Below are positions 25,601-60,372 of a DNA stretch of 64,000 nt, piece after piece. A program made the position numbers and the translations under genes. Below the pieces are notes generated by a model that was given only the letters and a program-made list of their open reading frames with translations, was not told where the DNA came from and made no database searches. Every line of letters starts with the position of its first letter. Positions within the stretch are counted from its first letter, which is position 1. The stretch comes from Eubacteriales bacterium (GTDB taxonomy: Bacteria; Bacillota; Clostridia; Oscillospirales; CAG-272), in NCBI GenBank assembly GCA_045635885.1, contig JAZTWO010000053.1:31-64030 (forward strand), written 5' to 3'.

Positions 25601-25897
25601 TTGTTAGAGCTTGGACGTGAAGCTGCTCACCATATTCTTTATACAGTAGTTCACTCTTCAGGTATGAACGGTTTTGTTCACGGTGTTGAATTCGTTAACG
25701 GATTTGCATACTATAAATTGATTCTTATAGCATGGGATATTCTCACACTTGTTGCGATATTCTTTATGTTAAGAGCAATGAGAAAGAGATTGCGTAATCG
25801 CAAGCTTGTTGCTGCCACAGTAGATGGCGAATGTGTTGAAATTGATGCTAAAGAAGTTGAAATTGAAGAAACGGTTAACGAACCTCAAAACGAATAA
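22664..25897 (+). CDS. GH3 family beta-glucosidase with permuted domain order and TM helices at both ends
   Basis: 1077 aa with RBS AGGAG. The GH3 C-terminal domain and Fn3-like region (PFGYGLSYTKFEW, VVQIYGQ) come before the TIM-barrel catalytic domain. That domain contains KHFALNDQETHRD, SFNRIGATWAGG and the nucleophile motif GFVLTDYE. Confidence 0.88.
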   Translation: MKKRKTEGKIKTKISPLIAGMSCLLIFAIIFNVLSLTKFDNIFEKFFGATPSRLKGDTLNADVNYYTSDFNSPSELYAYETQKVAQIAQEGITLLENKDGFLPLKEGTELSLFSVSSVDLVSGGSGSGSGSFELTTDLKTGLEGAGLKVNGTLWNFYKNYFEEHKYVLSNDPDKDSKHVRGKGVINYGADLDWSINECAVSNFANNSEIVSSFDNTVAMFVLSRTGGEGGDEPRDMAAFGGEPGQHYLEPDKTELEVIAYLNEHFENVIILINCNNTIELGWINNYENIKAVINFPGAGRTGTYGLGYMLRGLDVNNAEISASGHLVDTWVYDNFSSPAMQNMGDYMFTGIEGPYYYVNYSEGIYVGYRYYETRYEDAVLGRANVGDYNYDDTVVYPFGYGLSYTKFEWTDFNMSAPDKDNMIDVSVKVTNVGSRAGMDVVQIYGQAPYKEEVEKSSVVLVGFAKTRNLAPGEEQIIKIRVNLKDLTSYDVNANNGWGGYVLDSGNYYITAASNAHEAINLILKERAEVEGLTLDLTKWVDGKQDDTSSPEGEKMIGVHLQKETDNKTYAVVSEGYQTIKNQFDNSTLEDAVYLSRKNWSMMENDGLRYGYASATESRAEINGKQFQIEVPASIKDLLPKEESLNPNLGSYSTNITFGEKGDVDLIDLRGLPYDDPLWDDLLDQITLKEISKLIDECGYCSPEIESINKPKVTDLDGPAGLNDIVKHGSMPIGDDLRAMTWPTQYMLACTWNVVLAEEMGKGIGEDGLYSGVSGWYGPGMNIHRTPFAGRNFEYYSEDAFLSGELGKAEVNGAAQKGMYAFIKHFALNDQETHRDERGLATFADEQTIREIYLKPFEMTIVDNEVEIFYNEAVKNDNGKIISYTKKTTTVPAATAVMTSFNRIGATWAGGHYYLITEVLRNEWGFNGFVLTDYEVGDGKGAYMDTNQTIAAGGDAKLKTVGLSMEWETMLGYKLQRHPELLELGREAAHHILYTVVHSSGMNGFVHGVEFVNGFAYYKLILIAWDILTLVAIFFMLRAMRKRLRNRKLVAATVDGECVEIDAKEVEIEETVNEPQNE

Positions 25898-28210: not shown

Positions 28211-28239
28211 TTGACATTGGTATTTTAAAGGAGTATAAT
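28211..28239 (+). promoter_or_regulatory. consensus sigma-A promoter of the protease/cohesin operon
   Basis: TTGACA (28211-28216), a 17-nt spacer, then TATAAT (28234-28239). Confidence 0.65.
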
Positions 28240-28299
28240 AAAAATTACACAAAATATTAATAATTTATATGAATAAATTATCAAAAAGGAGAAACAGAA

Positions 28300-31200
28300 A
28301 TGAAAAGCTCTAAAAAGTTAGTAGTCATTAGTGTTTGTGCAATTGCGTTGGTGTTGGCTATTCTTGGCGCAACAATTGGCGTTAGCATTTATAATGGCTT
28401 AAAAATGCCGGAAGAAATTCCGTTGACAGATCTTGCCTCTACATATGATGGTGAGATTAAAGACGAAGAAGGTAACCTTCTCGTTCCGTTTGACGTTGCG
28501 TACCCTGAAGAATTTTCAACAGGCGCGTACAAATATAACGAGGACGTGCTTCTTCTTAAACTCAAAGAAGGATTTGGTGACAAAATTAATAGCAATTTAG
28601 AAAATTGTGGTTTTGAATCCATCGAACAATTCCTTAAAACCGATAATGGAACTTGGTATCGTGCAAAGTTAACTGAGGGCACAGAAGCCAAGGTTGCTAT
28701 TCAAAAAGCACGTTCTCTTTCTGAGGTTTTGATGGCGGATTTCGACTACATATATGAAACAGGTGCAGCAGATATTGAATATGCTGACGAAGTTCAAGAA
28801 AATCCTCTTTTGGATCAACAGTACTACCTTGGACAAAGTAATATTCAAGAGGCATGGGAATATCTTGAAGAAAATGGAATTTCTGCAGGCGGTTCTTCCT
28901 CTGTTGTCGTTGCGGTTATTGATACCGGTGTGGACTATAACCACCCCGACCTCAAGGCAAATATGTGGGTTAACACAGGTGAAATACCCAATAATGGTTA
29001 TGATGATGACGGTAATGGTTATGTAGACGACTATTATGGCTGTAGTACTATTGGTTCAGAATATAACCACAATGGTAACCCCATGGATGACCATGGACAC
29101 GGAACTCACGTTGCAGGTATTATCGCTGCTTCAAATAACAAAGAGGGTATTGTTGGTATTGCATATAACGTAAAAGTTATGGCTATTAAGGCAGGTCAGG
29201 CAACAGGTGTATTTAACCAGTCTGATATTGCCGAAGCAATTATTTACGCATATCAAATGGGTGCCGACGTTATCAATATGTCATTTGGTGGCGCAGCTTG
29301 TTCAATTGCTATTCAAGATGCTCTTTCAACAGCATACACAACAGCAACTCTTGTGGCTGCTGCGGGTAATAGTTCTATGCCTAATGAGGGCTTGTATGCT
29401 TTGCCCAACTATCCTGCGGCTCTTAGCTATGTTGTGGGTGTTATGTCTGTTGATAGATATGGCACAGAGTCTGCTTTTACAAACTATGATGTAAAGGCAT
29501 TTACAAAGGTAGAATACGAAATTTATGCAGCCGGTGAAGGCATTATGAGTACACTTCCTGACGGAAGATACGGTTCACTTTCAGGTACATCCATGGCTAC
29601 TCCTATGGTTTCTGCGGCAGCTGCCATTCTTCGTTCTTACTTTACAGACCGTGATATGTATCCTTCTAAGTTCATATCTGCACAACTTTGTGCAACAAGT
29701 GAGCATTCTGCAACTTGTTGTAATCCGAGCGTACACGGTGATCACAATATACCTATGATTTTGGATATTGAAGCTGCGCTTACAAAACTTCCTAAACCCG
29801 ACATTCAGGTTTATGATTTCTATTTCTTTGATCCTCAAACATATAATGGTGTAACGTACGACAATAATAATGGTGACGGTGTTGCAGATGCAGGCGAAAC
29901 ATTGCTTGTTGGTCTTGTACTTCGTAACCGTTGGGGTATGTCAGAAAATACCCTTGTATCTGTTGATGCAAAATCATCCCTTGGTGTAGATAGTCCATAT
30001 GTTGAAATTATTCAGGGTGAAGTGAACTTTGAAGGCATTGGAACATATTCAACCAAGAGTACACTTATATATAATGAAGAAAATGTTATTATTGGAATTT
30101 CAGATCCTATAATTATTAAGATTTCTGATGATTGTCCTAACGATTATCTTGTTGGTCTTAATGTATACATGACTTACGAAAATGCCCTTGACGAAGACGA
30201 TACAACAGTTTATGAATATGGCGAAGCCGGAAGTTATGAAGTGGAATTCTGGGCGCGTAATGGTTATATTCTTCCTTCTCAGATTACAGAAGATATGACT
30301 CTTACAAAAGATAATTACTATATCATGCCCAACTCAACATACATTTATGAAGGCGTAACAGTAACAGTTGAGCCGGGCACAAAAATTCAGTTCTGGTCAG
30401 ATGACCCCAACGACCCCTATGCCGACACATATATGGCATATCTTAACGTTGCAGGTAACTTTATCTGCCAGGGAACTGAAGAAGAACCGGTAGAACTTTT
30501 CCCAAGTGACATGATGTCAAATTATAGAGTTGAAATTAGACAACAGTCTAATGCAGTGGTAGACTTAAGTTATACCACAATAACAAATCCCTATATTGAT
30601 GCTGATAATATAGATCATTGTACATTTAAATATAATTATAACGAAAATCTCTATTATCGATATCTTTCTGAAGGTAGAGTACATTATAGTTCCAGTTATG
30701 GTATGTTAAGTGCTACCAAAGTAACCAATTCATTGTTCTATAAGTGTGGCGGTGGATGGTCTTCATTTAACTTGTATGGTAATTATGAAAGTTGTTCTTT
30801 TGTAGATTCTCATTGTAGTTATGGAGGTAATTACTCTAACTGCGTATTTATGGGAAATAACAATGAGGGATACGTATCTACTATAAACATTAGTAATACA
30901 CTTTCAACCGGTGTTGATCACGTTTTGCGCAATAGCAATACTGGTACAACATATGTTGCTGTGTATTTTAATGCTAATGGTAGTGCTGCGGCGCTTAACA
31001 CAGTTAGAAAAATTGCACAAGCTTGGGGCGGCGATATTGCTTGCTTTGAAACAGAAGAAGAATGGAACTTTATTAGAAATTCTTATATTAGTAATTACTC
31101 AAGTTCGTATTATAGATGTGGAATAGGTATAGAAAGCTCCTCTTCTACAACATGGGTAAACGGAGAACCCATTGGGGACTATATTCTTAATAATTATTAT

Positions 31201-34200
31201 AAATATGATGATGGAAGCTATGGTAACTGTACCGGAAGTATATATAAACAAAGTTCATATTATTCCTCATCTATATACTTCGATAGTTCATTAAGTTACT
31301 ATCTCATTGAAATTCCCGGTAGTATTTATGTTGATCAAATCTACCTTCGTGATTATAACGTAAGCATTGACAATGAATCAACTTATCAAATTAATGCTTC
31401 GGTTGTTCCTTCAACATTCGATAAGAGTAATCTTATATATGTAAGCGAAGATGAAAGAATTGCAACCGTTTCTGAAAGCGGTCTTGTAACTCCTGTTAGC
31501 GAGGGTAAAACCCGAATCTTTGTTTACTCTCCTGACTATAAGGCATATGGTGTATTTGATATTTCTATTATAGACAAGGTTCCTGTAACAGAAGTTAAAT
31601 TTGAGGATATGATTATTGAGTTTGGCAGCTGTCTTGAAGCCATTCCCACATATTCACCAATCAACACAACTCAGCGTGGCCTTACTTACTCATCAGAGAA
31701 CACATCCGTGGCAACCGTAAATGAGTATGGTATGGTATATGCTAATGGTACCGGAACAACAAAGATTAATGTTACTGCACAAAATGGTAATACCTATAGC
31801 TTTAACGTTAAGGTTGTTTCTAAGGTAGAATCGATTAAATTTGAAAATGCTTTCTACGTAACTCATTTGAACGACATAGACGAAAGCTGGAAGCCCGTGA
31901 TTTATCCCGCAAATGCTACAGACTATGTTGTTAATTATTCATCCTCCAATGAAAATGTGGCTTATGTTGACTCTAATGGTCAGCTTGTAAGAGCGGGCAT
32001 TGGCGTGGCAACAATTCGTGCTGAAATTGAAGGAACAAATCTCTATGCCGAAATCAACGTTAGTGTAAGTGAATCTCAAATCGATTCCCCAAGTGTTGTT
32101 GATATGGACTATTACGATTATACTGTATTAGCGGTTACAGATGACGGTTCTCTTTGGGTTTGGGGAAGAGGTCAGCAATACAGTAACTATATTAACGGTT
32201 CTTGGGTATATACAAACTCCAATATTAGAGTTCCAACTAAAATAGCAAGTGGTGTTAAATCTGCTAAATTTGGTTATTTGAATAGTTCATCTTACAGCTA
32301 TATTACATATGTTAAGAATGATGGTTCATTGGGAACACTTAGTTTATCATGGTCCAGCAACAGTGTAACTGCATATGAATATAATAGGGGATATGAAAGC
32401 CAGATTACTGATAAATTGACAAAAATTTATCGTTATTCTAATTCATATTACGCATTAACTGAAAACGGAATGGTTTATGTTGGCGGCGATAACTCTTATG
32501 GTCAACTCTGTGTTGGCACAACTGAAAATCTTTCAACCTTTGCTCTTGTTGGCATTACCGATGTTAAGGATATTCTTCCTTTTGACTGTTCTGCAGCTTT
32601 CTTAACAAATGCCGGTGAGCTTTATGTGGCTGGAACATACTATAACAAATACACATCTCCACACAAATTGGATAGTGATGTATCAGAAATTAGAGGTTAT
32701 GGTAACTATTTGATTTATGAAAAGAAAGATGGATCTCAGTATTCATATTATTCTAATAATAGTGATGAACCGTCATTTTCTATATCTTCATACAGAACAT
32801 ACTATAGATATAGTGATGTATATGTAGAAAACGGAAAACTTTATTATAGTAATAGTTTGGTAAGTGGTGTTGAAAATATTGATAATATGTTTGTTTTAGA
32901 ATCTGTTTATTATGCTTTAACTGATGATGGCAGCATTTATGGATTTGGCGAAAACTCTTACTATCAGCTTGCGGATCTTACCACAACTAATAGATACTAT
33001 GAAGCAAAGAAGATTTTCTTTGGACTTGGTTCTGATAATACACTTCCAGAGGTAGAATCAAACAACCTTGAAGAAGACGTTCTTCATGATAACAAGCTTG
33101 TTATTGACTATAATGTTGGATTGTTGACATCTTCTAACTACCCCAACATCAAGGTTACAGATTCAAAGGGAATGATTGTTTACTTTGATAAGGAAATTCG
33201 TCTTGATAAGGTTATTCTTACACCTCTTTATGAATTGAAGAATGGCGAAACATATACCCTTACAATTCCAAACAATTCATTTGTTACTGCGTGGGGTAAT
33301 AGCACAAGCACATATACACTTCAATTTACTTACGCAAATACAACTGAAATTGAATTCCTTGATTCTTCAATTAAGAATGGCGAAGTTCTTACTGATGGTA
33401 ATCTTAATGCAACAATTAATTATACATTTGCAACAGCAGGTGATAATTTCTTCTCAATCTCTCTTACAAAAGACGGTCAGGCAGTGACAGGATTTAACTT
33501 CAGTGTTGACAATGGTGCTCTCACCCTTTCTGCAACAGGTCTTGAGGTTGGCGAATATACACTTAGCATTCCTCAGGGTGCGCTCTGTGATAATGTTGGT
33601 GGCGAAAATGATGAACTTGTTTACACATTAACAGTTCCTGCAGCTGAAGAGGTTGTTTATGTTCCACTTGCAATAACATATTCTTCACTTGATTCCAAAA
33701 CAAGCGGTATAGCACTTTATCCTCAGTGGGTAGTTGTGATGAACAAGGAATTTACACTTAATAGCTCTCTTATTACTCTTGTTGATGCAGAGGGTAATTC
33801 AATTGGCGTTTACACAACTGTAAACAAGAATACTCTTGTTATCTTGGCTTCTCAGTCTCTTTCACCCAATACAACTTATACCATTAGTGTTAAGAGTGGT
33901 GCATTGACTGATGAAAAGGGAGCAAAGGCAGAGGCCATTGAGGCGACATTTACAACTCTTGAACAGAGTGAACGCTTCTTGTGGACAATTGATTCCTTTG
34001 CAGAAGAATATAGAAAGGAAGTTTACAAAAACGCATTCAACTATCGTTTCTATAACAATGCAGTTCTCAACAATTTCAATGATACAAACGTTGAACATTG
34101 GCTCAGATTTATTGCCGGCGAAGGAAGCATCAATGATAAGATCGGTCTTGGTCATAACTGGTGGGGAACTACACTTGAAGAAATGATTGATCGCCAAATC

Positions 34201-35415
34201 GTTGACTTTGATGACTATCAGTCACTTAGAGATATTGTTTATACACCATACCTCACAGAAGCTCCCTCTAACACATTCCCATTTGTTGTTGCTGCATATC
34301 TTATTAACGCAAATGGCGAAAGAGTGAACAAAGTAGGCAACGAAACAGTTACATTCGTAATCGAATTCAATCGTGATATGGATACATCCATTCCTCTTCG
34401 TGTGCGCTTCGGTTCATCTGAACCATATGCAGAATACGAAATTGATGGTGAATATGTTTCCGCACGTCGTTGGGAGGGAACATACACTCTTAAGACCACA
34501 ATTGAAAACGGAAGACAGTATTTCAAAATCGAAAATGGTGCAGCGGCAGATGATGGATATCTCGCTCTTTATGAAACTGCAGGCAGATTTGGTTTCGAAA
34601 TAGACACAACAGCGGCTCAGGCACTTATTATGCTTGGTGAAGCAACAGAAAACGGAATTAAACTTACATGGACACAGGATGACTTTGATACTCTTGCAGG
34701 ATATAACGTATATCGTTCTACATCTGAAAATGGATATTATACACGTATTAACAGTTATGTAATTCCTGCAGATACTAAGGAATTCTTTGATGACACAGTT
34801 GAACCAGGTCAGCGTTACTACTACAACTTTACAGTTGTAAAAACAGACCTTTCTGAGTCAACTCCTTCAGGTAAGATTAATTTGATGTCACTTGATACTA
34901 TGGCACCAAACATTTACCATAGCCCTGTTTATACAGCGTATACAGGCTCAAATCTTCTCATATCAGCAACAGTAACTGATAATCTTGGAATCAATAAGGT
35001 GTTTGTTCATTATCGCACAGTTGGTTCTGAGGAATGGAAGACTGTTGAAATGATAGCACATAATAGCCGTTATACAGGTGTTATTCTTGCCGATTATATT
35101 GATATTGATGGCCTTGAATATTATATCGAAGCAAATGACGGACGCAATAGCACATACAAGGGCTCTGCAAACGATCCATATAGTGTTATTGTTAAACTTG
35201 CTGTGGATGCAAACTCCAAGGGTGACGTTGATGGCGACGGTGTAATTACAAACAAAGATGCACTTATGGTTCTTCAAGCAACAAATGATCTTCTCAATCT
35301 TACAGAAGAACAGTTCTTGAGAGCTGATCTTAATGACGATGGTGAACTTTCTGCTTCTGAAGCACTTAGAATTCTTCAATATGTTAGTGGCAAAGTAACA
35401 ACCATTGTTGACTAA
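28300..35415 (+). CDS. giant secreted subtilisin-like (S8) serine protease with lectin-like, Big_2, RCC1-like, Ig-like and Fn3 modules and a C-terminal dockerin
   Basis: 2371 aa with RBS AGGAG and a signal anchor. S8 catalytic triad:
- Asp in VAVIDTGVD (codon 28921-28923)
- His in HGTHVAG (29098-29100)
- Ser in GTSMATP (29590-29592)
The C-terminus carries a duplicated Ca-binding dockerin. Confidence 0.92.
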   Translation: MKSSKKLVVISVCAIALVLAILGATIGVSIYNGLKMPEEIPLTDLASTYDGEIKDEEGNLLVPFDVAYPEEFSTGAYKYNEDVLLLKLKEGFGDKINSNLENCGFESIEQFLKTDNGTWYRAKLTEGTEAKVAIQKARSLSEVLMADFDYIYETGAADIEYADEVQENPLLDQQYYLGQSNIQEAWEYLEENGISAGGSSSVVVAVIDTGVDYNHPDLKANMWVNTGEIPNNGYDDDGNGYVDDYYGCSTIGSEYNHNGNPMDDHGHGTHVAGIIAASNNKEGIVGIAYNVKVMAIKAGQATGVFNQSDIAEAIIYAYQMGADVINMSFGGAACSIAIQDALSTAYTTATLVAAAGNSSMPNEGLYALPNYPAALSYVVGVMSVDRYGTESAFTNYDVKAFTKVEYEIYAAGEGIMSTLPDGRYGSLSGTSMATPMVSAAAAILRSYFTDRDMYPSKFISAQLCATSEHSATCCNPSVHGDHNIPMILDIEAALTKLPKPDIQVYDFYFFDPQTYNGVTYDNNNGDGVADAGETLLVGLVLRNRWGMSENTLVSVDAKSSLGVDSPYVEIIQGEVNFEGIGTYSTKSTLIYNEENVIIGISDPIIIKISDDCPNDYLVGLNVYMTYENALDEDDTTVYEYGEAGSYEVEFWARNGYILPSQITEDMTLTKDNYYIMPNSTYIYEGVTVTVEPGTKIQFWSDDPNDPYADTYMAYLNVAGNFICQGTEEEPVELFPSDMMSNYRVEIRQQSNAVVDLSYTTITNPYIDADNIDHCTFKYNYNENLYYRYLSEGRVHYSSSYGMLSATKVTNSLFYKCGGGWSSFNLYGNYESCSFVDSHCSYGGNYSNCVFMGNNNEGYVSTINISNTLSTGVDHVLRNSNTGTTYVAVYFNANGSAAALNTVRKIAQAWGGDIACFETEEEWNFIRNSYISNYSSSYYRCGIGIESSSSTTWVNGEPIGDYILNNYYKYDDGSYGNCTGSIYKQSSYYSSSIYFDSSLSYYLIEIPGSIYVDQIYLRDYNVSIDNESTYQINASVVPSTFDKSNLIYVSEDERIATVSESGLVTPVSEGKTRIFVYSPDYKAYGVFDISIIDKVPVTEVKFEDMIIEFGSCLEAIPTYSPINTTQRGLTYSSENTSVATVNEYGMVYANGTGTTKINVTAQNGNTYSFNVKVVSKVESIKFENAFYVTHLNDIDESWKPVIYPANATDYVVNYSSSNENVAYVDSNGQLVRAGIGVATIRAEIEGTNLYAEINVSVSESQIDSPSVVDMDYYDYTVLAVTDDGSLWVWGRGQQYSNYINGSWVYTNSNIRVPTKIASGVKSAKFGYLNSSSYSYITYVKNDGSLGTLSLSWSSNSVTAYEYNRGYESQITDKLTKIYRYSNSYYALTENGMVYVGGDNSYGQLCVGTTENLSTFALVGITDVKDILPFDCSAAFLTNAGELYVAGTYYNKYTSPHKLDSDVSEIRGYGNYLIYEKKDGSQYSYYSNNSDEPSFSISSYRTYYRYSDVYVENGKLYYSNSLVSGVENIDNMFVLESVYYALTDDGSIYGFGENSYYQLADLTTTNRYYEAKKIFFGLGSDNTLPEVESNNLEEDVLHDNKLVIDYNVGLLTSSNYPNIKVTDSKGMIVYFDKEIRLDKVILTPLYELKNGETYTLTIPNNSFVTAWGNSTSTYTLQFTYANTTEIEFLDSSIKNGEVLTDGNLNATINYTFATAGDNFFSISLTKDGQAVTGFNFSVDNGALTLSATGLEVGEYTLSIPQGALCDNVGGENDELVYTLTVPAAEEVVYVPLAITYSSLDSKTSGIALYPQWVVVMNKEFTLNSSLITLVDAEGNSIGVYTTVNKNTLVILASQSLSPNTTYTISVKSGALTDEKGAKAEAIEATFTTLEQSERFLWTIDSFAEEYRKEVYKNAFNYRFYNNAVLNNFNDTNVEHWLRFIAGEGSINDKIGLGHNWWGTTLEEMIDRQIVDFDDYQSLRDIVYTPYLTEAPSNTFPFVVAAYLINANGERVNKVGNETVTFVIEFNRDMDTSIPLRVRFGSSEPYAEYEIDGEYVSARRWEGTYTLKTTIENGRQYFKIENGAAADDGYLALYETAGRFGFEIDTTAAQALIMLGEATENGIKLTWTQDDFDTLAGYNVYRSTSENGYYTRINSYVIPADTKEFFDDTVEPGQRYYYNFTVVKTDLSESTPSGKINLMSLDTMAPNIYHSPVYTAYTGSNLLISATVTDNLGINKVFVHYRTVGSEEWKTVEMIAHNSRYTGVILADYIDIDGLEYYIEANDGRNSTYKGSANDPYSVIVKLAVDANSKGDVDGDGVITNKDALMVLQATNDLLNLTEEQFLRADLNDDGELSASEALRILQYVSGKVTTIVD
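35221..35391 (+). other. dockerin module of the S8 protease
   Basis: GDVDGDGVITNKDALMVLQ ... ADLNDDGELSASEALRILQYVSG. This is two EF-hand-like DxDxDG loops, each followed by a helix. Confidence 0.85.
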
Positions 35416-35427
35416 CGGGTAAAGAAA

Positions 35428-38400
35428 ATGAAAATCAAAATACACTTATTAGCAATACTGTTAACTTTGATTTTAATATTTGGTTCCCTCTCTGCTTTTG
35501 CAGAGGGGGATTCCCAAATTCCAACGATTTATTCATACGATCAAGAGGTTACAGCAGGAAATTATATTACATTATATGTATATTTGTCCGACGTTGAGTC
35601 TCTTGGTGCACTTGAATTCTTTGTTTTTTATGATACCGATGTTTTTGAACTTAATTATTGCTATAAAACTAATTTAGCAAATAATCAGCAGACGTCAATT
35701 AATACTGACACGGATGGTGTTATTAGTTTTAATATGATTTCTGCAAATGGAGTAAGCGGATCAGGTTCAATTTTTTATTTTAGCTTATATGTTAAGCGAG
35801 ATACAGTGGCAGGGTCATATGGTATTACATATGCCGTGGGAGATGCGTATAACACATCTCTTGAACCTATAACCATTTCTGCAACATCTCCAAAGATCAA
35901 CGTAAAATCTCCAACTGTTCAACAACAACAAATCTATTTTTATTCATCAGGATATTATTATGACACACGCTATTTGGGTGATACAATAACAATGAGTTTT
36001 GCCGCAAATGATGCCTATGGATTTGCTTCGGGAGATTTTGAAATAGAATATGACAAAAACATTCTTGAACTTCAAGATGCTTCGTTGGGTTCACAGTTAA
36101 CTTATAACCAAAATGCAATATACTCTATTAATACAGAACTTGCTGGATATGTAAAGATCTCCTATGCTTCAACGCAGGGAATTACGGGATATACTAATCC
36201 AATAATTAGTTTAACGTTTAAAGTTATTGCAGACATTGATGCAACAACCGAAGTAAAGTTTGTCGCATCAAATCTTTACGATCAAGAATTAAATGCTATT
36301 ATTGGCGGCACAGTTTCGCAAAATCTGTACATTGGTAAACAGGTTGTTAGTGAAGAATTACCAAAAATAACCGTAAGCGGATATGATGGAACTGATGAGA
36401 ACTTTGAGGTTAGTATTATAGCTCCAGGATCAAGTAATCTTGCAGCTATTGATTTTGAAATCTATTTTGATTCAAAAAAAATATCTTGTTCCTCTGCAGA
36501 ATGTGAACTTGAAAACGGTTTTGTTGTTCATAAAATTGATAATGAAAATGGTAAAATAACATTTTCATTTATTAGCGAAAATGGTATAACCGAAGATTCT
36601 GAGTTAATTAAATTAAGCTTTACAAGAGAAGGACTTTCGGGTGGTACATCTACACTCTATGTTTATGGTAAGAATGCTGTAAATGCTGATTTTGAAAGTA
36701 TTAATTTTAGCTATGAATATTCTACATTAGCTTGTCATGTTCTTGGTGATGAAGCTAATTGTACAACTGCCCAAATTTGTACCATTTGTCATAAACAGTT
36801 TGTAGAGCCTCTTGGACACGATGTAATTTCACACGAGGGTAAGAACTCTACATGTATCGAAGAAGGTTGGCAAGAATATGTAACCTGTTCAAGATGCGAT
36901 TATACAACCTACCAATCCATTGCTTGTATTCCTCATACATCCACATATTATGAGGGTAAGGAAGCAACGTGTTTAGAAATTGGTTGGCTTGCATACGAAA
37001 TTTGTTCTGTTTGTGACTATTCAAGTTACCAAGAAATTGCGGCTTTAGGTCATAGAATATGGGGATATGATTCGGTATCACAAAATGCATTGACATATAC
37101 AAACGATTCTATGTATCCCTTTAATTATGAAAATGGATATTATTATTCAACAAACAAGTATGACTCAACCGACTCATATTTCTATATTACAGCTAATAAT
37201 GATTGTACTGTAACCATTGAATATAACGTTTCAAGCGAACAAAGCTGGGATATTCTTTACATAAAATATAATGGTATGATTTATGTAAATGCATCTGGTT
37301 CTGTGTGTTCATCAATAACATTTGAACTTACTGCGGGAGATGTTATTACTATCAATTACCATAAGGACGGAAGTGTATCAAATGGTAGTGATGTTGGTTG
37401 GTTTAAATGTACGATTTCTAATTCCTATATTCCGCTTCCTGCAGAAAATTTTGATCCCACATGTACTGATGCGGTGGTTTGTGATTTCTGTTCAGCTACA
37501 GTGAAAGAAGCATTGGGACATGATGAAACATCTCATGAAGCACAGGATGCAACCTGTACAGAAAATGGATGGGAAGCATATGTAACATGCTCAAGGTGTG
37601 ATTACACCACTTACAGTGAAATTAGTGCATTGGGTCACACATTTACTGATGCTACATGTACAAGTGCAAAAACATGTTCGGTTTGTGGTGCAACCGAAGG
37701 AGAAGCACTTGGTCATACGTGGACACAAGCTACATGCACTAGCGCAAAGACATGTATTGTTTGCGGAGTGATTGAAGGTTCATCGCTTGGTCACACATGG
37801 ACGCAAGCAACATGTACAACTGCAAAAACATGTACAGCTTGTGGTGTAACTGAAGGAGAAGCACTTGGTCATGCATGGGCAAATGCAACTTGTATAACTC
37901 CTCAAACATGTACAGTATGTGGCGTGACAGAGGGAACACCCCTCGGACACACATGGGTTGAAGCAGATATCTCCTCCCCCAAAACTTGTTCAGTGTGCGG
38001 AGTAACAGAAGGCTCGACATTGGAGCATATATGGGCGGATGCAACATGCACAACAGCAAAGATTTGTTTAATTTGTGGAACAACAGAGGGAGCAGCTCTT
38101 GGCCACGATTTTGCAAATTATATATCTAATAACAATGCAACTTGTACAGAAGATGGAACAAAGACATCAACATGTACACGTTGTTCGGTAACAAATACAA
38201 TTACAGATGAAAACTCCAAGCTTGGTCACGATATGTCATTTACAACATGTACAGAGGCATCAAAGTGTCAAAGAGATGGATGTAATCATACTGAAGGCAC
38301 AGCTTTTGGACATGATATGTTGCCTGCGACATGTACAAGTGCAAAAACATGTTGGGTTTGTGGTGTAACAGAAGGCAATGCAACTGGTCATAATTGGATT

Positions 38401-38907
38401 AATGCTACTTGTGTAACTCCTAAAACATGCACAGTTTGTGGTGCAACCGAAGGTGAAGCACTTGGTCATACGTGGACACAAGCTACATGCACTAGCGCAA
38501 AGATATGTATTGTTTGCGGAACAACTGACGGCACACACATGGGACACACTTGGAGCAGTGGCATTGTTACAAAAGAACCTACTGCTGAAGAATTTGGAAT
38601 TAAACTTTACACATGTATCGTATGTGGAGAAGAAAAAACCGAAAGTATTCCAATGCTTACAGAAGTCTCTGGAGACATTGATGGTGATAAACAGATCACA
38701 TATTCTGACGCCGTATATCTTTTGATGTATTCTTACTTCCCGGATGACTATCCTGTTAGTCAAGAGTGTGATATTAACGGTGATGGAGAAATCAATTATT
38801 CTGACGCCGTACATCTTTTGATGTACACCTTTTTCCCAGAGGAATATCCTTTGAAAAACGAAACAGAATATGCAATTTTGCCACAAAAGAAAAGAGAGGA
38901 CGAATAA
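35428..38907 (+). CDS. scaffoldin-like protein: three cohesin-like modules, Cys-rich repeat array, C-terminal dockerin
   Basis: 1159 aa with a signal peptide. Cohesin-like modules are marked by LGALEFFVFYDTDVFEL, ASGDFEIEYDKNILEL and LAAIDFEIYFDSKKIS. About 10 repeats of 27 aa follow (LGHxWxxATCTxxKTCxVCGxTEG). Confidence 0.85.
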   Translation: MKIKIHLLAILLTLILIFGSLSAFAEGDSQIPTIYSYDQEVTAGNYITLYVYLSDVESLGALEFFVFYDTDVFELNYCYKTNLANNQQTSINTDTDGVISFNMISANGVSGSGSIFYFSLYVKRDTVAGSYGITYAVGDAYNTSLEPITISATSPKINVKSPTVQQQQIYFYSSGYYYDTRYLGDTITMSFAANDAYGFASGDFEIEYDKNILELQDASLGSQLTYNQNAIYSINTELAGYVKISYASTQGITGYTNPIISLTFKVIADIDATTEVKFVASNLYDQELNAIIGGTVSQNLYIGKQVVSEELPKITVSGYDGTDENFEVSIIAPGSSNLAAIDFEIYFDSKKISCSSAECELENGFVVHKIDNENGKITFSFISENGITEDSELIKLSFTREGLSGGTSTLYVYGKNAVNADFESINFSYEYSTLACHVLGDEANCTTAQICTICHKQFVEPLGHDVISHEGKNSTCIEEGWQEYVTCSRCDYTTYQSIACIPHTSTYYEGKEATCLEIGWLAYEICSVCDYSSYQEIAALGHRIWGYDSVSQNALTYTNDSMYPFNYENGYYYSTNKYDSTDSYFYITANNDCTVTIEYNVSSEQSWDILYIKYNGMIYVNASGSVCSSITFELTAGDVITINYHKDGSVSNGSDVGWFKCTISNSYIPLPAENFDPTCTDAVVCDFCSATVKEALGHDETSHEAQDATCTENGWEAYVTCSRCDYTTYSEISALGHTFTDATCTSAKTCSVCGATEGEALGHTWTQATCTSAKTCIVCGVIEGSSLGHTWTQATCTTAKTCTACGVTEGEALGHAWANATCITPQTCTVCGVTEGTPLGHTWVEADISSPKTCSVCGVTEGSTLEHIWADATCTTAKICLICGTTEGAALGHDFANYISNNNATCTEDGTKTSTCTRCSVTNTITDENSKLGHDMSFTTCTEASKCQRDGCNHTEGTAFGHDMLPATCTSAKTCWVCGVTEGNATGHNWINATCVTPKTCTVCGATEGEALGHTWTQATCTSAKICIVCGTTDGTHMGHTWSSGIVTKEPTAEEFGIKLYTCIVCGEEKTESIPMLTEVSGDIDGDKQITYSDAVYLLMYSYFPDDYPVSQECDINGDGEINYSDAVHLLMYTFFPEEYPLKNETEYAILPQKKREDE
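35506..36720 (+). other. three tandem cohesin-like modules (approximate bounds)
   Basis: Each module is about 130 aa. Each has the pattern (G/A)xxxFx(I/V)xYDxxxLxL and a later xIxxLxFKV-type strand. Confidence 0.6.
37681..37767 (+). repeat. 87-bp intragenic repeat, copy A
   Basis: Differs from copy B (38434-38520) at only 2 positions: a/t at 37701 vs 38454, and c/t at 37751 vs 38504. Confidence 0.9.
38434..38520 (+). repeat. 87-bp intragenic repeat, copy B
   Basis: gtttgtggtgcaaccgaaggtgaagcacttggtcatacgtggacacaagctacatgcactagcgcaaagatatgtattgtttgcgga. Confidence 0.9.
38671..38850 (+). other. dockerin module of the scaffoldin-like protein (sequence class distinct from the protease dockerin)
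   Basis: GDIDGDKQITYSDAVYLLMYSYFPDDYP ... DINGDGEINYSDAVHLLMYTFFPEEYP. Confidence 0.8.
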
Positions 38908-40212
38908 ATGAAAAGGAAGTTTTTATTAATAACAATCTTGCTTGTGCTTGTCTTGTTGCCATTAACTGCGAAGGCTGCAGGGATATCCGCAAATATGGAT
39001 AATGAATCCTGCGCTAAAGGAAGCACGGTAACATTGAGCGTTTCACTTTCCGAGTCTATAGATGTGGCATCGGGAGCGATTGAAGTTATGTATGATAAAA
39101 CAAAACTTCAACTTGTAGAAGGCGTTTGGAATGTTCCTGGATCACTTATAACCAATTTTGATATTGCTAAAGAAAAAGGAGCATTTGCTTTTTCTTCAAC
39201 ATCAACAGTTGGTGGAAATATATTTTATTTAACATTCAAAGTGCTTTCTGGCGCATCATTAGGTGATACAGAAGTAAAATGTACAATACAACTTAGAGAT
39301 GCTGCAAATAACAATGTATTTGTTGATGATGTAAAGGCACAAATCATAGTTACTTGTGAACATAACTTTAGTAGCAAAACAAATAACTATCTTGCGGAAA
39401 ATGCAACTTGTACTTCAGCCGCAACATATTATTATTCTTGTTCAATTTGTGGAATCAAGGGAGAAACAACTTATACAGTTGGAGAACCTAAAGAACACAA
39501 ATATAATAGAATGGTTACTTCGGCAGAATATCTTGTAACTAATGTTAAATGTGTGGATTCTGCAGAGTATTACTATAGTTGCGCATGTGGAGCAAGAGGA
39601 TTTGAAAAGTTCAAAGGTGATGCTTCGTGGACTCATAATTACAATAATGCATGGTACATTGATGAATATGGACATTGGAATGCTTGTGTAGATTGTGGTG
39701 CAAAAAAGAATTATGCAACTCATGATGCAACAAACAATGTTTGTAATACATGTTTCTTTGTTATTGAAAGTGAAGGAGAACATATACACAATTTTAGTAT
39801 TATGTTAAAAACTGACGAAGTGGGACACTGGTATGAATGTTATTGTGGGGAAAAGAAAGATTACGCTCCTCATAATTATGGTAATGCCACAACAATAAAG
39901 CAACCCACCGAATCTGAAAAAGGTGAAGAAATCGTTGTTTGCGAAATTTGTTATCACGCAACTATAAGGGAAGTTCCAATGATTATTGTGAATAACTCCG
40001 AAGAGCCAAAATCCAATATCGCTTTGGTAGTGATTGTAACTATTTGTTGCGTTTTAGGTGTAGAAGCAATAATCTATATCTTGTATAAAAATTTCAAAAA
40101 GAAGCCGGTGGAAATTGTAGAGCGATCAAATCCCATTGAAGCTATTATTGAACCCGAAGTGCAAGAAAACACCGAAGTCGTTGAAGAAAACAACGAGAAA
40201 ATAAATAATTAA
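38908..40212 (+). CDS. membrane-anchored cohesin-like protein with Cys-rich modules
   Basis: 434 aa. The ATG directly follows the upstream TAA. It has a signal peptide and a cohesin-like module (ASGAIEVMYDKTKLQLVEG, IFYLTFKVL). HxxxxxxxCxxxxxYYYSCxCG modules follow. The C-terminal TM helix is IALVVIVTICCVLGVEAIIYILY, followed by an acidic tail. Confidence 0.85.
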   Translation: MKRKFLLITILLVLVLLPLTAKAAGISANMDNESCAKGSTVTLSVSLSESIDVASGAIEVMYDKTKLQLVEGVWNVPGSLITNFDIAKEKGAFAFSSTSTVGGNIFYLTFKVLSGASLGDTEVKCTIQLRDAANNNVFVDDVKAQIIVTCEHNFSSKTNNYLAENATCTSAATYYYSCSICGIKGETTYTVGEPKEHKYNRMVTSAEYLVTNVKCVDSAEYYYSCACGARGFEKFKGDASWTHNYNNAWYIDEYGHWNACVDCGAKKNYATHDATNNVCNTCFFVIESEGEHIHNFSIMLKTDEVGHWYECYCGEKKDYAPHNYGNATTIKQPTESEKGEEIVVCEICYHATIREVPMIIVNNSEEPKSNIALVVIVTICCVLGVEAIIYILYKNFKKKPVEIVERSNPIEAIIEPEVQENTEVVEENNEKINN

Positions 40213-40258
40213 AAAAAGCTTCCAAGGTTGCTAAAGCAACCTTGGAAGCTTTTTGTTT
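40211..40258. terminator. bidirectional terminator
   Basis: aaagcttccaaggttgc-taaa-gcaaccttggaagcttt forms a 17-bp stem flanked by an A-run and a T-run. Confidence 0.85.
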
Positions 40259-45278: not shown

Positions 45279-45925
45279 AACTCGTCCTCCTTTATATATG
45301 AGATAAAATGCTCTCCGTTTTTGTACTCACAAATTGAGGAAAGTGCAAAGTTTTCATTTCTTTCGGGATAATCGTTTCTGATGTGCGCACCACGAGTTTC
45401 CTTGCGTTCAAGTGCGCTTGTAAGAATTGCACGGGCAAGGAGCAACATAGGACGCAAAGAGTAACCAATGTAAAGGGAAACGTCTGAATCGTACATCAAC
45501 TTGTCGGCAATAGAGAGATAGTAATCCACGCTGTGAATACCCTCAACAAGCTTTTCCTCGGTGCGAGTAATACCAAGGCAATCGTTTAATATTTTGGCGA
45601 TTTCATAACGAACATAAACGGCGGTGAATTGGCTTTTTGATGACAGTTGTTCACTAATTGCGTGTTCCTGTGCAGAAATATATTCGTTAAAATTAGGATG
45701 TCCGCTATTTTCTGCCAAACTTCCAATGGAATTTGCCGCAACCTGTCCGCTATAAATAGCCGCTAATAATGAGTTGCCACCAAGTCTGTTAGCTCCGTGA
45801 TACATAGAAGCGCACTCACCAACGGCATACAAATTGTCAATGGATGTTTTGTGGTCTTTGTTAACCGCCAAACCGCCCATAAAGAAGTGAACGGAGGGAT
45901 AAACAGGAATACTTTTCTTTGTGAC
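45275..45925 (-). pseudogene. C-terminal about 215 codons of a fumarate reductase/succinate dehydrogenase flavoprotein subunit (5' truncated)
   Basis: Homology begins at KKSIPVYPSVHFFMGG (the HxxMGG motif that lies past the midpoint of full-length FrdA/SdhA). It continues through ERKETRGAHIRNDYPER to the stop. The FAD-binding N-terminal half is absent. The upstream part of the 265-aa ORF is read-through into unrelated sequence. Confidence 0.8.
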
Positions 45926-60371: not shown

Positions 60372-60372
60372 T

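What the first reader, a model, noticed from the sequence alone, without database searches (positions are those of the whole stretch)
28300..40212. Cellulosome-style cohesin/dockerin operon whose cargo is a giant S8 protease and whose anchor is a TM helix
Three co-directional genes are essentially fused. One stop is at 35415 with the next start at 35428, and the TAA at 38905-38907 is followed directly by the ATG at 38908.
- Gene 1 is a 2,371-aa subtilase with an intact D/H/S triad, ending in a canonical duplicated-loop dockerin (GDVDGDGVITNKD...DLNDDGELSASE).
- Gene 2 has three cohesin-like modules and a clearly different dockerin (GDIDGDKQITYSD...DINGDGEINYSD).
- Gene 3 has one cohesin-like module and a C-terminal TM helix.

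This matches the enzyme -> scaffoldin -> anchor logic established for cellulosomes. Here, however, the only dockerin-bearing catalytic subunit in the locus is a protease. Anchoring also appears to use a membrane helix rather than SLH domains or sortase. The two dockerin classes suggest a built-in two-tier specificity. A self-contained surface proteolytic complex (a 'proteosome-like cellulosome') would be unusual.
Basis: partly seen in the sequence, partly recalled or inferred. Interest (0 to 1): 0.65.

Follow-up and report, generated by a model that had tools for sequence, protein, structure and literature searches.

The report
Membrane-anchored cohesin-dockerin display of giant protease
Three co-transcribed genes encode a giant subtilisin-type protease, a three-cohesin adaptor and a membrane-anchored cohesin protein, which probably snap together like a cellulosome to hold the protease on the cell surface; the protease/three-cohesin pair recurs in many gut bacteria and wall-less mollicutes and has not been characterised.

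Summary
Three tightly packed genes (28300-40212) lie between a consensus promoter and a strong terminator.
- g1 is a 2371-aa S8 protease with an intact catalytic triad and a C-terminal dockerin.
- g2 has three cohesins, a Cys-rich stalk and a dockerin of a different class.
- g3 has one cohesin, a Cys/His module and a C-terminal TM helix.

All four cohesin modules pass Pfam. In AlphaFold models they match solved cohesins.

The enzyme -> adaptor -> anchor reading is supported by comparative genomics, not by binding data. All 19 dockerin-bearing lineages of this protease have a neighbouring gene with exactly three N-terminal cohesins. Three of three reciprocal look-ups agree. In 5 of 5 loci the g3-type anchor directly follows a gene ending in the g2-type dockerin.

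- The three cohesins are ancient and non-equivalent, not repeated docking sites.
- Most homologues of the protease are also lipoproteins.
- Dockerin-borne S8 proteases and TM-anchored cohesin proteins are already in the literature.

This is not a cellulosome: the window has no dockerin-bearing glycoside hydrolase, no CBM, no SLH domain and no sortase signal. I rate it a widespread, uncharacterised variant of a known assembly principle. Binding specificity and substrate remain untested.

The parts
28211..28239 (+). Sigma-70-type promoter TTGACA-17-TATAAT (12 of 12 matches), about 60 nt upstream of g1
   Evidence: sequence
28287..28295 (+). Shine-Dalgarno sequence AAAGGAGAA upstream of the g1 ATG
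   Evidence: read directly
28300..35415 (+). g1: 2371-aa pre-pro S8 subtilase with a C-terminal dockerin
28321..28377 (+). g1 aa 8-26: N-terminal hydrophobic helix, either a signal peptide or a signal anchor. It has no lipobox Cys, unlike 95 of 120 homologues.
28897..29667 (+). g1 aa 200-456: Peptidase_S8 catalytic domain with D208, H267, N357 and S431
31312..32073 (+). g1 about aa 1005-1258: three Big_2 Ig-like domains (approximate bounds)
32083..33024 (+). g1 about aa 1262-1575: RCC1-like beta-propeller (approximate bounds)
33037..33969 (+). g1 about aa 1580-1890: Big_5 Ig-like repeats (approximate bounds)
34012..35199 (+). g1 aa 1905-2300: family-specific conserved C-terminal region, including Fn3-like and Ig-like modules. 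This region was used as the family marker (alignment A2).
35218..35385 (+). g1 aa 2307-2362: type-I-like dockerin (GDVDGDGVITNKD...DLNDDGELSASE)
35428..38907 (+). g2: 1159-aa adaptor made of a signal peptide, three cohesins, a Cys-rich stalk and a dockerin
35509..35907 (+). g2 cohesin 1 (aa 28-160)
35929..36333 (+). g2 cohesin 2 (aa 168-302)
36346..36735 (+). g2 cohesin 3 (aa 307-436)
36760..37062 (+). g2 aa 445-545: first block of Cys-rich modules (CxxxxxCxxC...GH and TCxExGW..Y.TCSRCDY types)
37090..37422 (+). g2 aa 555-665: confidently predicted beta-sandwich domain of unknown family (pLDDT 82-96)
37462..38652 (+). g2 aa 679-1075: second block of Cys-rich repeats, mostly 26-aa units (78-nt tandem period); presumed stalk
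38671..38847 (+). g2 aa 1082-1140: dockerin of a second class, with a near-perfect internal duplication (YSDAV[YH]LLMY..FP[DE][DE]YP)
38887..38907 (+). Codons for the g2 C-terminal tail KKREDE plus the stop. This purine-rich stretch (aaaagagaggacgaa) doubles as the ribosome-binding site of g3, giving translational coupling.
38908..40212 (+). g3: 434-aa membrane anchor made of a signal peptide, one cohesin, a Cys/His module, a TM helix and an acidic tail
38986..39354 (+). g3 cohesin (aa 27-149)
39355..39975 (+). g3 aa 150-356: Cys/His-rich module with 24 invariant C or H positions across 25 orthologues (pLDDT about 90)
40018..40086 (+). g3 aa 371-393: C-terminal transmembrane helix, followed by KNFKKK and an acidic cytoplasmic tail
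40213..40254 (.). Hairpin with a 19-bp stem and flanking A and T runs. It acts as a bidirectional terminator between g3 and the convergent MFS gene.

Best explanation
**What it is.** The locus is a self-contained operon for displaying a protease on the cell surface, built from cohesin-dockerin parts.

**How it most likely works.**
- g1 is exported as a pre-pro subtilase, initially held at the membrane by its N-terminal hydrophobic segment. In most homologues this segment is a lipid anchor.
- Autocatalytic removal of the propeptide would cut that tether (inferred).
- The mature protease, roughly 2200 aa, would then be retained by its C-terminal type-I-like dockerin, bound to the three-cohesin head of g2 (inferred from conserved adjacency).
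- g2 is a secreted adaptor. Its roughly 650-aa Cys-rich stalk ends in a second-class dockerin that plugs into the single cohesin of g3 (inferred from conserved adjacency).
- g3 is fixed in the cytoplasmic membrane by a C-terminal TM helix.
- Stacked together, g3 and g2 would carry the protease out through the peptidoglycan layer of this walled Bacillota organism (inferred).

**What it most likely does.**
- The enzyme most likely degrades extracellular proteins or glycoproteins at the cell surface to supply peptides. This is analogous to lactococcal and streptococcal cell-envelope proteinases, with a dockerin in place of LPXTG.
- Its Ig-like, beta-propeller and Fn3 modules probably act as substrate-binding or spacer elements.

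**Shown versus inferred.**
- Shown: domain identities, cohesin folds, intact catalytic residues, operon structure and conserved gene pairing.
- Inferred: which dockerin binds which cohesin, propeptide processing and the substrate.
For: **Domain identities.**
- S8 domain with invariant D208, H267, N357 and S431.
- All four cohesin modules score above the Pfam gathering score.
- The AlphaFold2 models have pLDDT above 90 over the cohesins. Foldseek against the PDB returns cohesins: for g3 the top 49 hits, probability 1.0, target-normalised TM-score (TMt) 0.35-0.74, mostly 0.6-0.74; for g2 a TMt up to 0.84 at about 2 A rmsd.

**Operon structure.**
- Consensus promoter, 12-nt and 0-nt gene junctions, and a terminator.

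**Pairing of the g1 dockerin with the g2 cohesins.**
- Among 26 lineages (clustered at 90% identity) that carry the g1-specific C-terminal region, all 19 with the dockerin have an adjacent gene with exactly three N-terminal cohesins. The 7 distant, dockerin-less homologues have none.
- These lineages include MAGs of Oscillospirales, Erysipelotrichaceae and Bacilli, a common human-gut species (51 contigs), Acholeplasma laidlawii and a Mycoplasmatota genome.
- Reciprocally, 3 of 3 triple-cohesin proteins chosen from the g2 search have an S8+dockerin gene immediately upstream.
- Within about 10 kb, the protease is the only dockerin-bearing enzyme found by a two-loop dockerin scan in every lineage where the scan scored it. 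The only extra dockerin ORFs (domains unknown) are in L011.

**Pairing of the g2 dockerin with the g3 cohesin.**
- In 5 of 5 loci (window, L002, L147, L148, L149) the g3 orthologue directly follows, and is translationally coupled to, a gene whose product ends in the FFPE[DE]YP-type dockerin.

**The anchor is an exchangeable module.**
- Triple-cohesin proteins end in a TM helix, SLH domains or a dockerin. This is what one expects if the invariant function of the head is to hold the protease at the surface.

**Precedents.**
- g1's dockerin is most similar to that of the C. thermocellum S8 protease (PDB 8X39, E 3e-8). That dockerin binds the cell-bound scaffoldin ScaD (PMC12484212).

**Cell envelope of the host.**
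- The organism has a class A PBP and a MurNAc-L-Ala amidase, so it has a wall to span.
Against:
- The three cohesins are non-equivalent (16-20% identity). Some may bind other partners, or nothing at all.
- The dockerin is far more conserved than any of the cohesins: 58% against 28-30% mean identity. A mirror-tree test did not single out a partner cohesin.
- In most homologues the protease is itself a lipoprotein. The dockerin may therefore not be needed merely for retention, unless propeptide cleavage removes the lipid anchor, and that is not shown.
- The g2 dockerin scores 1.3 bits below Pfam's gathering score.
- The g2-type dockerin also occurs on a BspA-like LRR protein next to a g3 orthologue (L148). 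g3 is therefore a general anchor, not one specific to the protease.
- Only 64 kb of the genome was seen. Other dockerin proteins, including glycoside hydrolases, could exist elsewhere.
- The substrate is unknown.
Confidence: 0.68

Rival explanations
1. The locus is an ordinary accessory of a larger cellulosome or amylosome. On this view g2 and g3 are general scaffoldins of a multi-enzyme polysaccharide-degrading complex encoded elsewhere in the genome, and the protease is one minor cargo that trims or turns over other components.
For: - Dockerin-borne proteases are accessory components of known cellulosomes and amylosomes.
- g3-type anchors also sit next to an LRR protein that carries the g2-type dockerin.
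- Three non-equivalent cohesins could serve three classes of dockerin.
- Related genomes encode further dockerin proteins nearby (L085; L011).
- GH16 and GH3 genes lie 2-10 kb upstream.
Against: - The protease/triple-cohesin pairing is strict in all 19 dockerin-bearing lineages and in 3 of 3 reciprocal look-ups. These include Acholeplasma and Mycoplasmatota genomes of about 1.6 Mb.
- The window's GH16 x2 and GH3 have no dockerin. They are lipoproteins or TM proteins.
- No CBM was found on g2 or g3.
- The protease is the only dockerin-bearing enzyme found near the cassette in every lineage where the two-loop dockerin scan scored it; the only extra dockerin ORFs are in L011.
Confidence: 0.12
2. 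The assembly is as proposed, but the role is different. The complex would be a processing or shedding protease, or a host-interaction protease, rather than a nutritional one. Candidate activities are maturation or release of other surface proteins, attack on competitors' surface layers, or cleavage of host proteins such as mucins or immunoglobulins.
For: - The many binding-type modules (Big_2, RCC1-like propeller, Big_5, Fn3) suggest specific macromolecular targets.
- The family is common in human-gut and animal-gut metagenomes.
- The literature proposes processing or turnover roles for cellulosomal S8 proteases (PMC12484212).
- From my own knowledge: related large surface subtilases such as the streptococcal C5a peptidase are host-directed.
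Against: - The catalytic domain is closest to a broad-specificity collagenolytic subtilase, deseasin MCP-01.
- No specific substrate gene is conserved in the neighbourhood.
- The cassette is also present in environmental mollicutes.
Confidence: 0.15
3. The three-cohesin head is not a dockerin receptor. On this view the cohesin-like modules are a rigid structural or substrate-binding unit, or a maturation partner of the protease. The dockerins would then act only as Ca-binding stabilising modules or bind something else.
For: - The three modules are only 16-20% identical, and each position is separately conserved, as in a fixed multi-domain unit.
- Sequence similarity to any solved cohesin is marginal: the best single-sequence hit is 2XDH at E 0.027.
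- The dockerin is much more conserved than the cohesins, and the co-evolution signal is weak.
- From my own knowledge: many non-cellulosomal cohesin-like modules have no known partner.
Against: - Presence of the dockerin on the protease and presence of the triple-cohesin neighbour go together perfectly: 19 of 19 against 0 of 7.
- The independent g2-dockerin/g3-cohesin adjacency (5 of 5 loci) shows the same logic operating in these organisms.
- The predicted folds superpose on dockerin-binding cohesins at about 2 A.
Confidence: 0.05

Closest known systems
Acetivibrio (Clostridium) thermocellus S8 serine protease with a tandem double dockerin (dDoc_0689; PDB 8X39/8X3A), which binds the cell-bound scaffoldin ScaD
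   Same: - It is an S8 protease carrying a type-I-like dockerin, and anchoring at the cell surface has been proposed for it (PMC12484212).
- Its dockerin is the best PDB sequence match to the g1 dockerin: E 3e-8 for the single sequence and 4e-9 for the family profile.
   Different: - g1 has a single dockerin, not two.
- g1 is a giant multi-domain protein of 2371 aa.
- The partner here is a dedicated adjacent three-cohesin protein, not a general SLH scaffoldin of a cellulosome.
- No cellulosomal enzymes are present in the locus.
Cell-surface anchoring scaffoldins with one cohesin: R. bromii Sca2 and R. flavefaciens ScaE
   Same: - Each is a single-cohesin protein that ties other dockerin-bearing proteins to the cell.
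- Sca2 binds dockerins of peptidases and LRR proteins as well as amylases, which suggests a general anchoring role (PMC4611034).
- g3 orthologues likewise sit next to both triple-cohesin and LRR proteins that carry the same dockerin type.
   Different: - Sca2 and ScaE are attached to the wall by sortase. g3 has a C-terminal TM helix and a Cys/His-rich module.
- No LPXTG motif is present.
Single-cohesin proteins with a C-terminal TM helix noted bioinformatically in H. luporum, C. cibarium and Lachnoclostridium sp. MSJ-17 (PMC11557425)
   Same: They have a cohesin plus a C-terminal transmembrane helix and were proposed as non-SLH anchoring scaffoldins.
   Different: - Their binding partners were left open.
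- Here the likely partner dockerin is identified by translationally coupled adjacency in 5 of 5 loci.
- Sequence relatedness to those proteins was not tested.
Cell-envelope proteinases of Gram-positive bacteria: lactocepin PrtP and the streptococcal C5a peptidase ScpA (from my own knowledge)
   Same: - They are very large pre-pro S8 subtilases with Ig/Fn3-type spacer domains.
- They are held at the cell surface by a C-terminal anchoring module.
- Their roles are nutritional or host-directed proteolysis.
   Different: - Their anchor is LPXTG/sortase, or they are released autoproteolytically. Here it is a dockerin plus dedicated cohesin proteins.
- No PA-domain hit was found in g1.
- NCBIfam models for related surface or secretion-associated subtilases (mycosin, dentilisin PrtP) score far below their cut-offs.
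The minimal two-gene cohesin/dockerin operon ClcC-ClcD of Cellulosilyticum lentocellum (PMC13487519)
   Same: It is a small, dedicated operon in which a single dockerin-bearing enzyme is encoded next to its cohesin partner.
   Different: - The cargo is a GH5 cellulase and the cohesin protein carries a CBM3 for cellulose.
- There is no membrane anchor and no second tier.

Membership tests
Cohesin domain (Pfam PF00963) | Sequence match to the family profile at or above the curated cut-off | tested here: met
   g2 scores 71.1 bits in 3 stretches and g3 scores 36.6 bits, against a gathering score of 24.1. A local HMM delineates four modules.
Cohesin domain (Pfam PF00963) | Nine-stranded beta-sandwich fold that superposes on solved cohesins | tested here: met
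   - AlphaFold2 pLDDT is above 90 over all four modules.
- Foldseek against the PDB: for g3 the top 49 hits are all cohesins (TMt 0.35-0.74, mostly 0.6-0.74). For g2 the hits include 3UL4_A, 6KGC_A and 2XDH at TMt 0.83-0.84 and rmsd 1.9-2.1 A.
- These are predicted structures, not experimental ones.
Cohesin domain (Pfam PF00963) | Ca2+-dependent high-affinity binding of a dockerin | not testable with these tools
Only gene-adjacency evidence is available.
Dockerin type I (Pfam PF00404) | Profile match at or above the cut-off | tested here: inconclusive
   - The g1 dockerin scores 33.3 bits against a gathering score of 22.9, so it is met.
- The g2 dockerin scores 21.6 bits, which is 1.3 bits short.
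- The g2 dockerin does match the solved dockerin 2Y3N_B at E 2e-4.
Dockerin type I (Pfam PF00404) | Two tandem segments of about 22 residues, each an EF-hand-like Ca loop (DxDxDG...D/E at position 12) followed by a helix | tested here: met
   - g1: DVDGDGVITNKD and DLNDDGELSASE.
- g2: DIDGDKQITYSD and DINGDGEINYSD.
- In the g2 model a helix follows each loop, at aa 1092-1103 and 1124-1135.
Peptidase S8 (subtilase) | Catalytic Asp-His-Ser in that order, plus the oxyanion Asn, in the conserved motifs DTG, HGTH and GTSMA | tested here: met
   - D208 lies in VIDTGVDY, H267 in HGHGTHV, N357 in AAGN and S431 in GTSMATP.
- All four are invariant in alignment A1 and align to 3VV3.
- Pfam E-value 2e-50.
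Cellulosome (multi-enzyme plant-cell-wall-degrading complex) | Dockerin-bearing glycoside hydrolases or other CAZymes as cargo | tested here: not met
   - Only two dockerins occur in the 64 kb, on the protease and on g2.
- The nearby GH16 x2 and GH3 lack dockerins and are lipoproteins or TM proteins.
- The rest of the genome was not available.
Cellulosome (multi-enzyme plant-cell-wall-degrading complex) | Primary scaffoldin with several similar cohesins, usually with a cellulose-binding CBM | tested here: not met
   - Three cohesins are present, but they are only 16-20% identical to each other and are positionally orthologous across lineages.
- No CBM family was detected on g2 or g3.
Cellulosome (multi-enzyme plant-cell-wall-degrading complex) | Attachment to the cell wall through SLH domains or a sortase signal | tested here: not met
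   - g1, g2 and g3 have no SLH hit and no LPXTG-like motif.
- g3 ends in a TM helix.
- Some homologous triple-cohesin proteins do carry SLH domains (P0007/L151).
Bacterial lipoprotein (for g1) | Lipobox [LVI][ASTVI][GAS]C at the end of the signal peptide | tested here: not met
   - The window's g1 has no lipobox Cys. Its N-terminus reads MKSSKKLVVISVCAIALVLAILGATIG...
- 95 of 120 family members do have one.

The most novel reading that the evidence does not exclude
The giant S8 protease and the three-cohesin head are two halves of an ancient surface machine dedicated to a protease. This machine would be a cohesin-dockerin system separate from cellulosomes.
- The three non-equivalent cohesins would form one fixed receptor. 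It might grip the single, highly conserved dockerin and possibly other parts of the enzyme, or gate its activity.
- The membrane, wall or second-tier anchor would be swapped freely between lineages.
- The machine is present in human-gut Oscillospirales, Erysipelotrichaceae and wall-less mollicutes. It could therefore be a major, so far unrecognised route of extracellular protein or host-glycoprotein degradation in anaerobic gut Bacillota.
Probability: 0.3. Interest if true: 0.75.

Novelty: new variant of a known kind. Interest (0 to 1): 0.55.

Why it matters
**Where this fits.** Cohesin-dockerin assembly is textbook for cellulosomes and has been extended to amylosomes. Its use outside polysaccharide degradation is mostly a list of orphan modules.

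**What this adds.**
- This locus and its relatives give a concrete, testable non-carbohydrate case: a conserved two-gene cassette of a giant S8 protease with a dockerin plus a three-cohesin head.
- The cassette comes with interchangeable anchors: a TM helix, SLH domains, or a dockerin that plugs into a TM-anchored cohesin protein.
- It is found in hundreds of sequence clusters. These include a common human-gut species and Acholeplasma laidlawii, a species that can be grown in culture.

**Why that is useful if confirmed.**
- It would define how many uncultured gut Bacillota display their main extracellular protease.
- It would supply new orthogonal cohesin-dockerin pairs for protein engineering.
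- It would show that a fixed set of three diverged cohesins, rather than repeated identical ones, can be the functional unit.

Tried and rejected
- **Modelling cohesin-dockerin complexes.** No multimer evidence was therefore obtained.
- **Finding the source genome or organism name.**
  - g3 is not on record by exact look-up.
  - Cluster members of PheS, PheT, Def and the T2SSE protein carry no organism names.
  - The organism is therefore only placed as a walled Bacillota, from its PBP and amidase and from the taxa of its relatives.
- **Single-sequence searches of the cohesins against PDB sequences.** These were nearly empty. The best hit was the A. fulgidus cohesin 2XDH at E 0.027. Fold comparison was needed instead.
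- **Mirror-tree test for which cohesin co-evolves with the g1 dockerin.** Partial correlations were 0.37, 0.38 and 0.24 for positions 1 to 3. This does not discriminate between them.
- **PDB sequence search of g1 aa 491-1010.** No hits were found. That region stays unassigned.
- **Rfam over the whole window.** No hits were found, so no riboswitch or leader was detected upstream of the operon. No tRNAs were found either.
- **A g3-like anchor next to the cassette in the human-gut species and in L011.** None was found. Their anchors, if any, are encoded elsewhere.
- **Peer et al. 2009 on non-cellulosomal cohesins and dockerins.** The paper is not held in the library. Statements about it rest on my memory.
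- **The idea that the host might be a wall-less mollicute**, which would have explained the TM anchor. I rejected this because the window encodes a class A PBP and a muramoyl-alanine amidase.

Full report
**1.

- g1: 28300-35415, 2371 aa.
- g2: 35428-38907, 1159 aa.
- g3: 38908-40212, 434 aa.

All three are on the + strand and in the same reading frame.
- Twelve bases separate the g1 stop from the g2 start. The g2 TAA is followed directly by the g3 ATG.
- A perfect TTGACA-17-TATAAT promoter lies at 28211-28239, with a good Shine-Dalgarno sequence before g1.
- A hairpin with a 19-bp stem at 40213-40254 separates g3 from a convergent MFS gene.
- I read this as one transcription unit.

**2. What the three proteins are**

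*g1.*
- Pfam finds Peptidase_S8 (aa 200-456, E 2e-50), three Big_2 domains, an RCC1-like propeller, Big_5 repeats and Dockerin_1 (aa 2307-2362, 33.3 bits against a gathering score of 22.9).
- D208, H267, S431 and the oxyanion N357 are invariant among ten full-length homologues.
- These residues align with those of the collagenolytic subtilase deseasin MCP-01 (3VV3, E 1e-46).

*g2.*
- It has a cleavable-looking signal peptide and three cohesins (Pfam 71 bits; modules at aa 28-160, 168-302 and 307-436).
- Two blocks of Cys-rich repeats flank a confidently predicted beta-sandwich at aa 555-665.
- It ends in a dockerin that scores 21.6 bits, just under the gathering score.
- That dockerin has two canonical Ca-loop/helix segments and a sequence match to a solved dockerin (2Y3N_B, E 2e-4).

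*g3.*
- It has a signal peptide, one cohesin (36.6 bits), a Cys/His module with 24 invariant C or H positions across 25 orthologues, a TM helix followed by basic residues, and an acidic tail.

*Fold check.*
- AlphaFold2 models built on homologue alignments have pLDDT above 90 over all four cohesins.
- Foldseek against the PDB returns cohesins. For g3 the top 49 hits are cohesins at TMt 0.35-0.74, mostly 0.6-0.74. For g2, single cohesins superpose at TMt up to 0.84 and about 2 A rmsd.

*The two dockerins.*
- They are clearly different.
- g1's two segments share 7 of 22 positions. g2's are a near-perfect duplication, sharing 18 of 27 (YSDAV[YH]LLMY..FP[DE][DE]YP).

**3. Context in the window**

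- A six-frame scan finds no other dockerin in the 64 kb.
- The upstream GH16 x2 and GH3 genes lack dockerins. They are lipoproteins or TM proteins.
- None of g1, g2 or g3 has an LPXTG motif or an SLH domain.
- The organism has a class A PBP and a MurNAc-L-Ala amidase. It is therefore walled, not a mollicute.
- I could not obtain its name.

**4. The cassette is conserved and widespread**

*The protease family.*
- g1 has dozens of full-length homologues (39-66% identity, same domain order) and hundreds of shorter S8+dockerin relatives.
- Named sources include Clostridiales/Clostridia MAGs, Acholeplasma laidlawii, Paracholeplasma and a Mycoplasmatota genome.

*From the protease side.*
- I collected loci using a profile of the family-specific C-terminal region and analysed them with local HMMs.
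- This gave 26 lineages at 90% identity.
- All 19 lineages whose protease carries the dockerin have, immediately adjacent, a gene with exactly three N-terminal cohesins.
- The 7 distant, dockerin-less homologues (Paraferrimonas, Chloroflexi, Pirellulales, Verrucomicrobiota and others) have none.
- One lineage is a common human-gut organism, seen on 51 contigs.

*From the cohesin side.*
- Every cohesin-bearing g2 homologue in the first search has three cohesins at aa ~25-440, apart from one N-terminally cut sequence and two weak single-module hits.
- For 3 of 3 such proteins that I looked up, an S8+dockerin gene lies directly upstream.
- An exhaustive HMMER search with the 440-aa head finds 532 clusters (at 50% identity) at E <= 1e-3 and 170 at E <= 1e-30. 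Among the 150 best, which are the ones listed, nearly all match as one collinear stretch at their own N-terminus.

**5. The three cohesins are not equivalent sockets**

- Within g2 the three cohesins are 16-20% identical.
- Across 18 lineages, 55 of 56 modules find their best match at the same position in another lineage.
- This is unlike classical scaffoldins, whose cohesins are recent near-identical copies (my own knowledge).
- It suggests a fixed three-module head.
- Which module binds the dockerin is open. A mirror-tree test was uninformative.

**6. The anchor is modular**

Triple-cohesin proteins end in one of three ways.
- A TM helix plus basic residues: A. laidlawii, L001, L010, L086-L088 and many database hits.
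- SLH domains: P0007/L151.
- A dockerin: the window, L002, L011, L090 and the human-gut species.

For the FFPE[DE]YP-type dockerin that the window's g2 carries, I found the following.
- A g3 orthologue (single cohesin, Cys/His module, TM helix) follows immediately in 5 of 5 loci examined: the window, L002, L147, L148 and L149.
- In L148 the upstream dockerin protein is a 2180-aa BspA-like LRR protein, not a triple-cohesin protein. g3 is therefore a general membrane anchor for this dockerin class.
- In all five junctions the purine-rich codons of the conserved C-terminal tail (...K[RK]EDE[E]) sit where the ribosome-binding site of g3 should be, with adjacent or overlapping stop and start codons. 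This points to translational coupling.

**7. N-terminal tether of the protease**

- 95 of 120 family members have a lipobox.
- The window's g1 and its closest relatives instead have a long Cys-less hydrophobic helix.
- A propeptide normally lies between the signal and the catalytic domain of subtilases, and it is cleaved on maturation (established knowledge for S8).
- I therefore infer that the N-terminal tether is lost on maturation and that the dockerin provides the lasting attachment. This step is not shown.

**8. Comparison with what is known**

- Dockerin-borne proteases are established accessory cargo.
  - The C. thermocellum S8 protease with a double dockerin binds the cell-bound scaffoldin ScaD (PMC12484212).
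  - Its dockerin is the best PDB match to g1's (E 3e-8; 4e-9 with the family profile).
- R. bromii Sca2 binds peptidase and LRR dockerins, and a general anchoring role was proposed for it (PMC4611034).
- R. flavefaciens has many peptidase dockerins (PMC2930009).
- Rumen metagenomes show protein-catabolic dockerin proteins (PMC6487960).
- Single-cohesin proteins with C-terminal TM helices have been noted without partners (PMC11557425).
- A minimal cohesin/dockerin operon was recently characterised (PMC13487519).
- Functionally, g1 resembles Gram-positive cell-envelope proteinases, with a dockerin where they have LPXTG (my own knowledge).
- My searches found no description of the conserved S8-dockerin/three-cohesin cassette or of its presence in mollicutes.
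- The library lacks most subscription journals, so absence there is weak evidence.

**9. Verdict**

The assembly logic is well backed by adjacency statistics, but it is untested biochemically.
- The system is not a cellulosome: the window has no dockerin-bearing CAZyme, no CBM, no similar repeated cohesins, and no SLH or sortase anchoring.
- Each individual element has a precedent. What is new is their combination into a widespread, protease-dedicated cassette with a fixed three-cohesin head and swappable anchors.
- I rate it a new variant of a known kind, with interest 0.55.

Noticed in passing
window 36760-37062 and 37462-38652 (g2), 39355-39975 (g3); also the N-terminus of the LRR lipoprotein at 11160-13364 (-): - There are Cys-rich modules with no Pfam family.
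  - One is a 26-aa unit, ATCTSAKTCxVCGxTEGEALGHTW (78-nt tandem period, at least 8 copies).
  - The other is a longer TCTExGWxxYxTCSRCDY...ALGH unit.
- In g3 orthologues 24 Cys or His positions are invariant, and the module is predicted with pLDDT of about 90.
- In the human-gut species, the g2 homologue varies from 511 to 1602 aa between contigs. Expansion and contraction of these repeats is one possible cause; fragmented ORFs on draft contigs are another.
- These modules may bind metal or form disulfide-stabilised stalk units.
   Followed up: partly
window 38887-38910; L002 about 15845-15875; L147 about 1140-1172; L148 about 6870-6904; L149 about 9970-10004: - Proteins carrying the FFPE[DE]YP-type dockerin share a conserved C-terminal tail, ...K[RK]EDE(E).
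- The purine-rich codons of this tail (aaagaggacgaa and similar) lie exactly where the Shine-Dalgarno sequence of the downstream anchor gene should be.
- The stop and start codons are adjacent or overlap (ATGA).
- The peptide tail may therefore be conserved partly because of this overlapping translation signal.
   Followed up: partly
window 46635-48266 (-), 49733-54538 (+), 58875-63207 (+): A likely anti-phage defence island lies downstream. It contains:
- a GmrSD-type nuclease (PADLOC PDC-M55C/HEC-05);
- a 1601-aa fused DEAD-box + UvrD helicase (DpdF-like and GajB-like halves);
- an MzaB-MzaC pair (E 8e-86 and 2e-120).

Other Mza components were not looked for.
   Followed up: partly
window 18229-19026, 19069-22566, 22664-25897 (+): - Two GH16 enzymes have lipoprotein signal peptides.
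- A GH3 has N-terminal and C-terminal TM helices.
- None has a dockerin.
- In this organism, glycoside hydrolases appear to be tethered to the membrane directly rather than through cohesin-dockerin pairs.
   Followed up: partly
L017 9692-15810 (contig LJKL01000014.1, labelled Methanomassiliicoccales archaeon RumEn M2): - The S8-dockerin/three-cohesin cassette occurs on a contig binned to a rumen methanogenic archaeon.
- It is 46% identical to g1 in its best-matching segment, and its cohesins are 49-53% identical to those of a Eubacteriales MAG.
- The protease gene is split into three ORFs.
- Mis-binning, horizontal transfer or a pseudogene are all possible. The neighbouring genes gave no taxonomic clue.
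   Followed up: partly
window 7720-8580 (-) and 11160-13364 (-); L148 362-6904: - BspA-type leucine-rich-repeat surface proteins are encoded in the window. One is TM-anchored and one is a lipoprotein.
- In a related locus, an LRR protein of this type carries the g2-type dockerin and sits directly before a g3 orthologue.
- LRR proteins are therefore a second class of cargo for this anchor.
   Followed up: partly
window 44604-46072 (-): - The fumarate reductase/succinate dehydrogenase flavoprotein ORF (45275-46072, 265 aa) matches only the last 70 or so positions of FAD_binding_2 plus the C-terminal domain.
- The gene therefore looks truncated or split at its 5' end.
- It lies next to the iron-sulfur subunit and close to the defence island.
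   Followed up: no
L085 1-2915 and 25765-27443 (Mycoplasmatota CP076020): Near the cassette this mollicute genome also encodes two other giant proteins, which shows that further dockerin cargo exists in these small genomes.
- One is a 3131-aa RCC1-repeat protein.
- The other is a 5935-aa protein with a Dockerin_1 domain.
   Followed up: no
window 1-64000: No tRNA gene and no Rfam family at gathering threshold was found anywhere in the window. There is also no T-box hit upstream of pheS/pheT (1698-5124).
   Followed up: no
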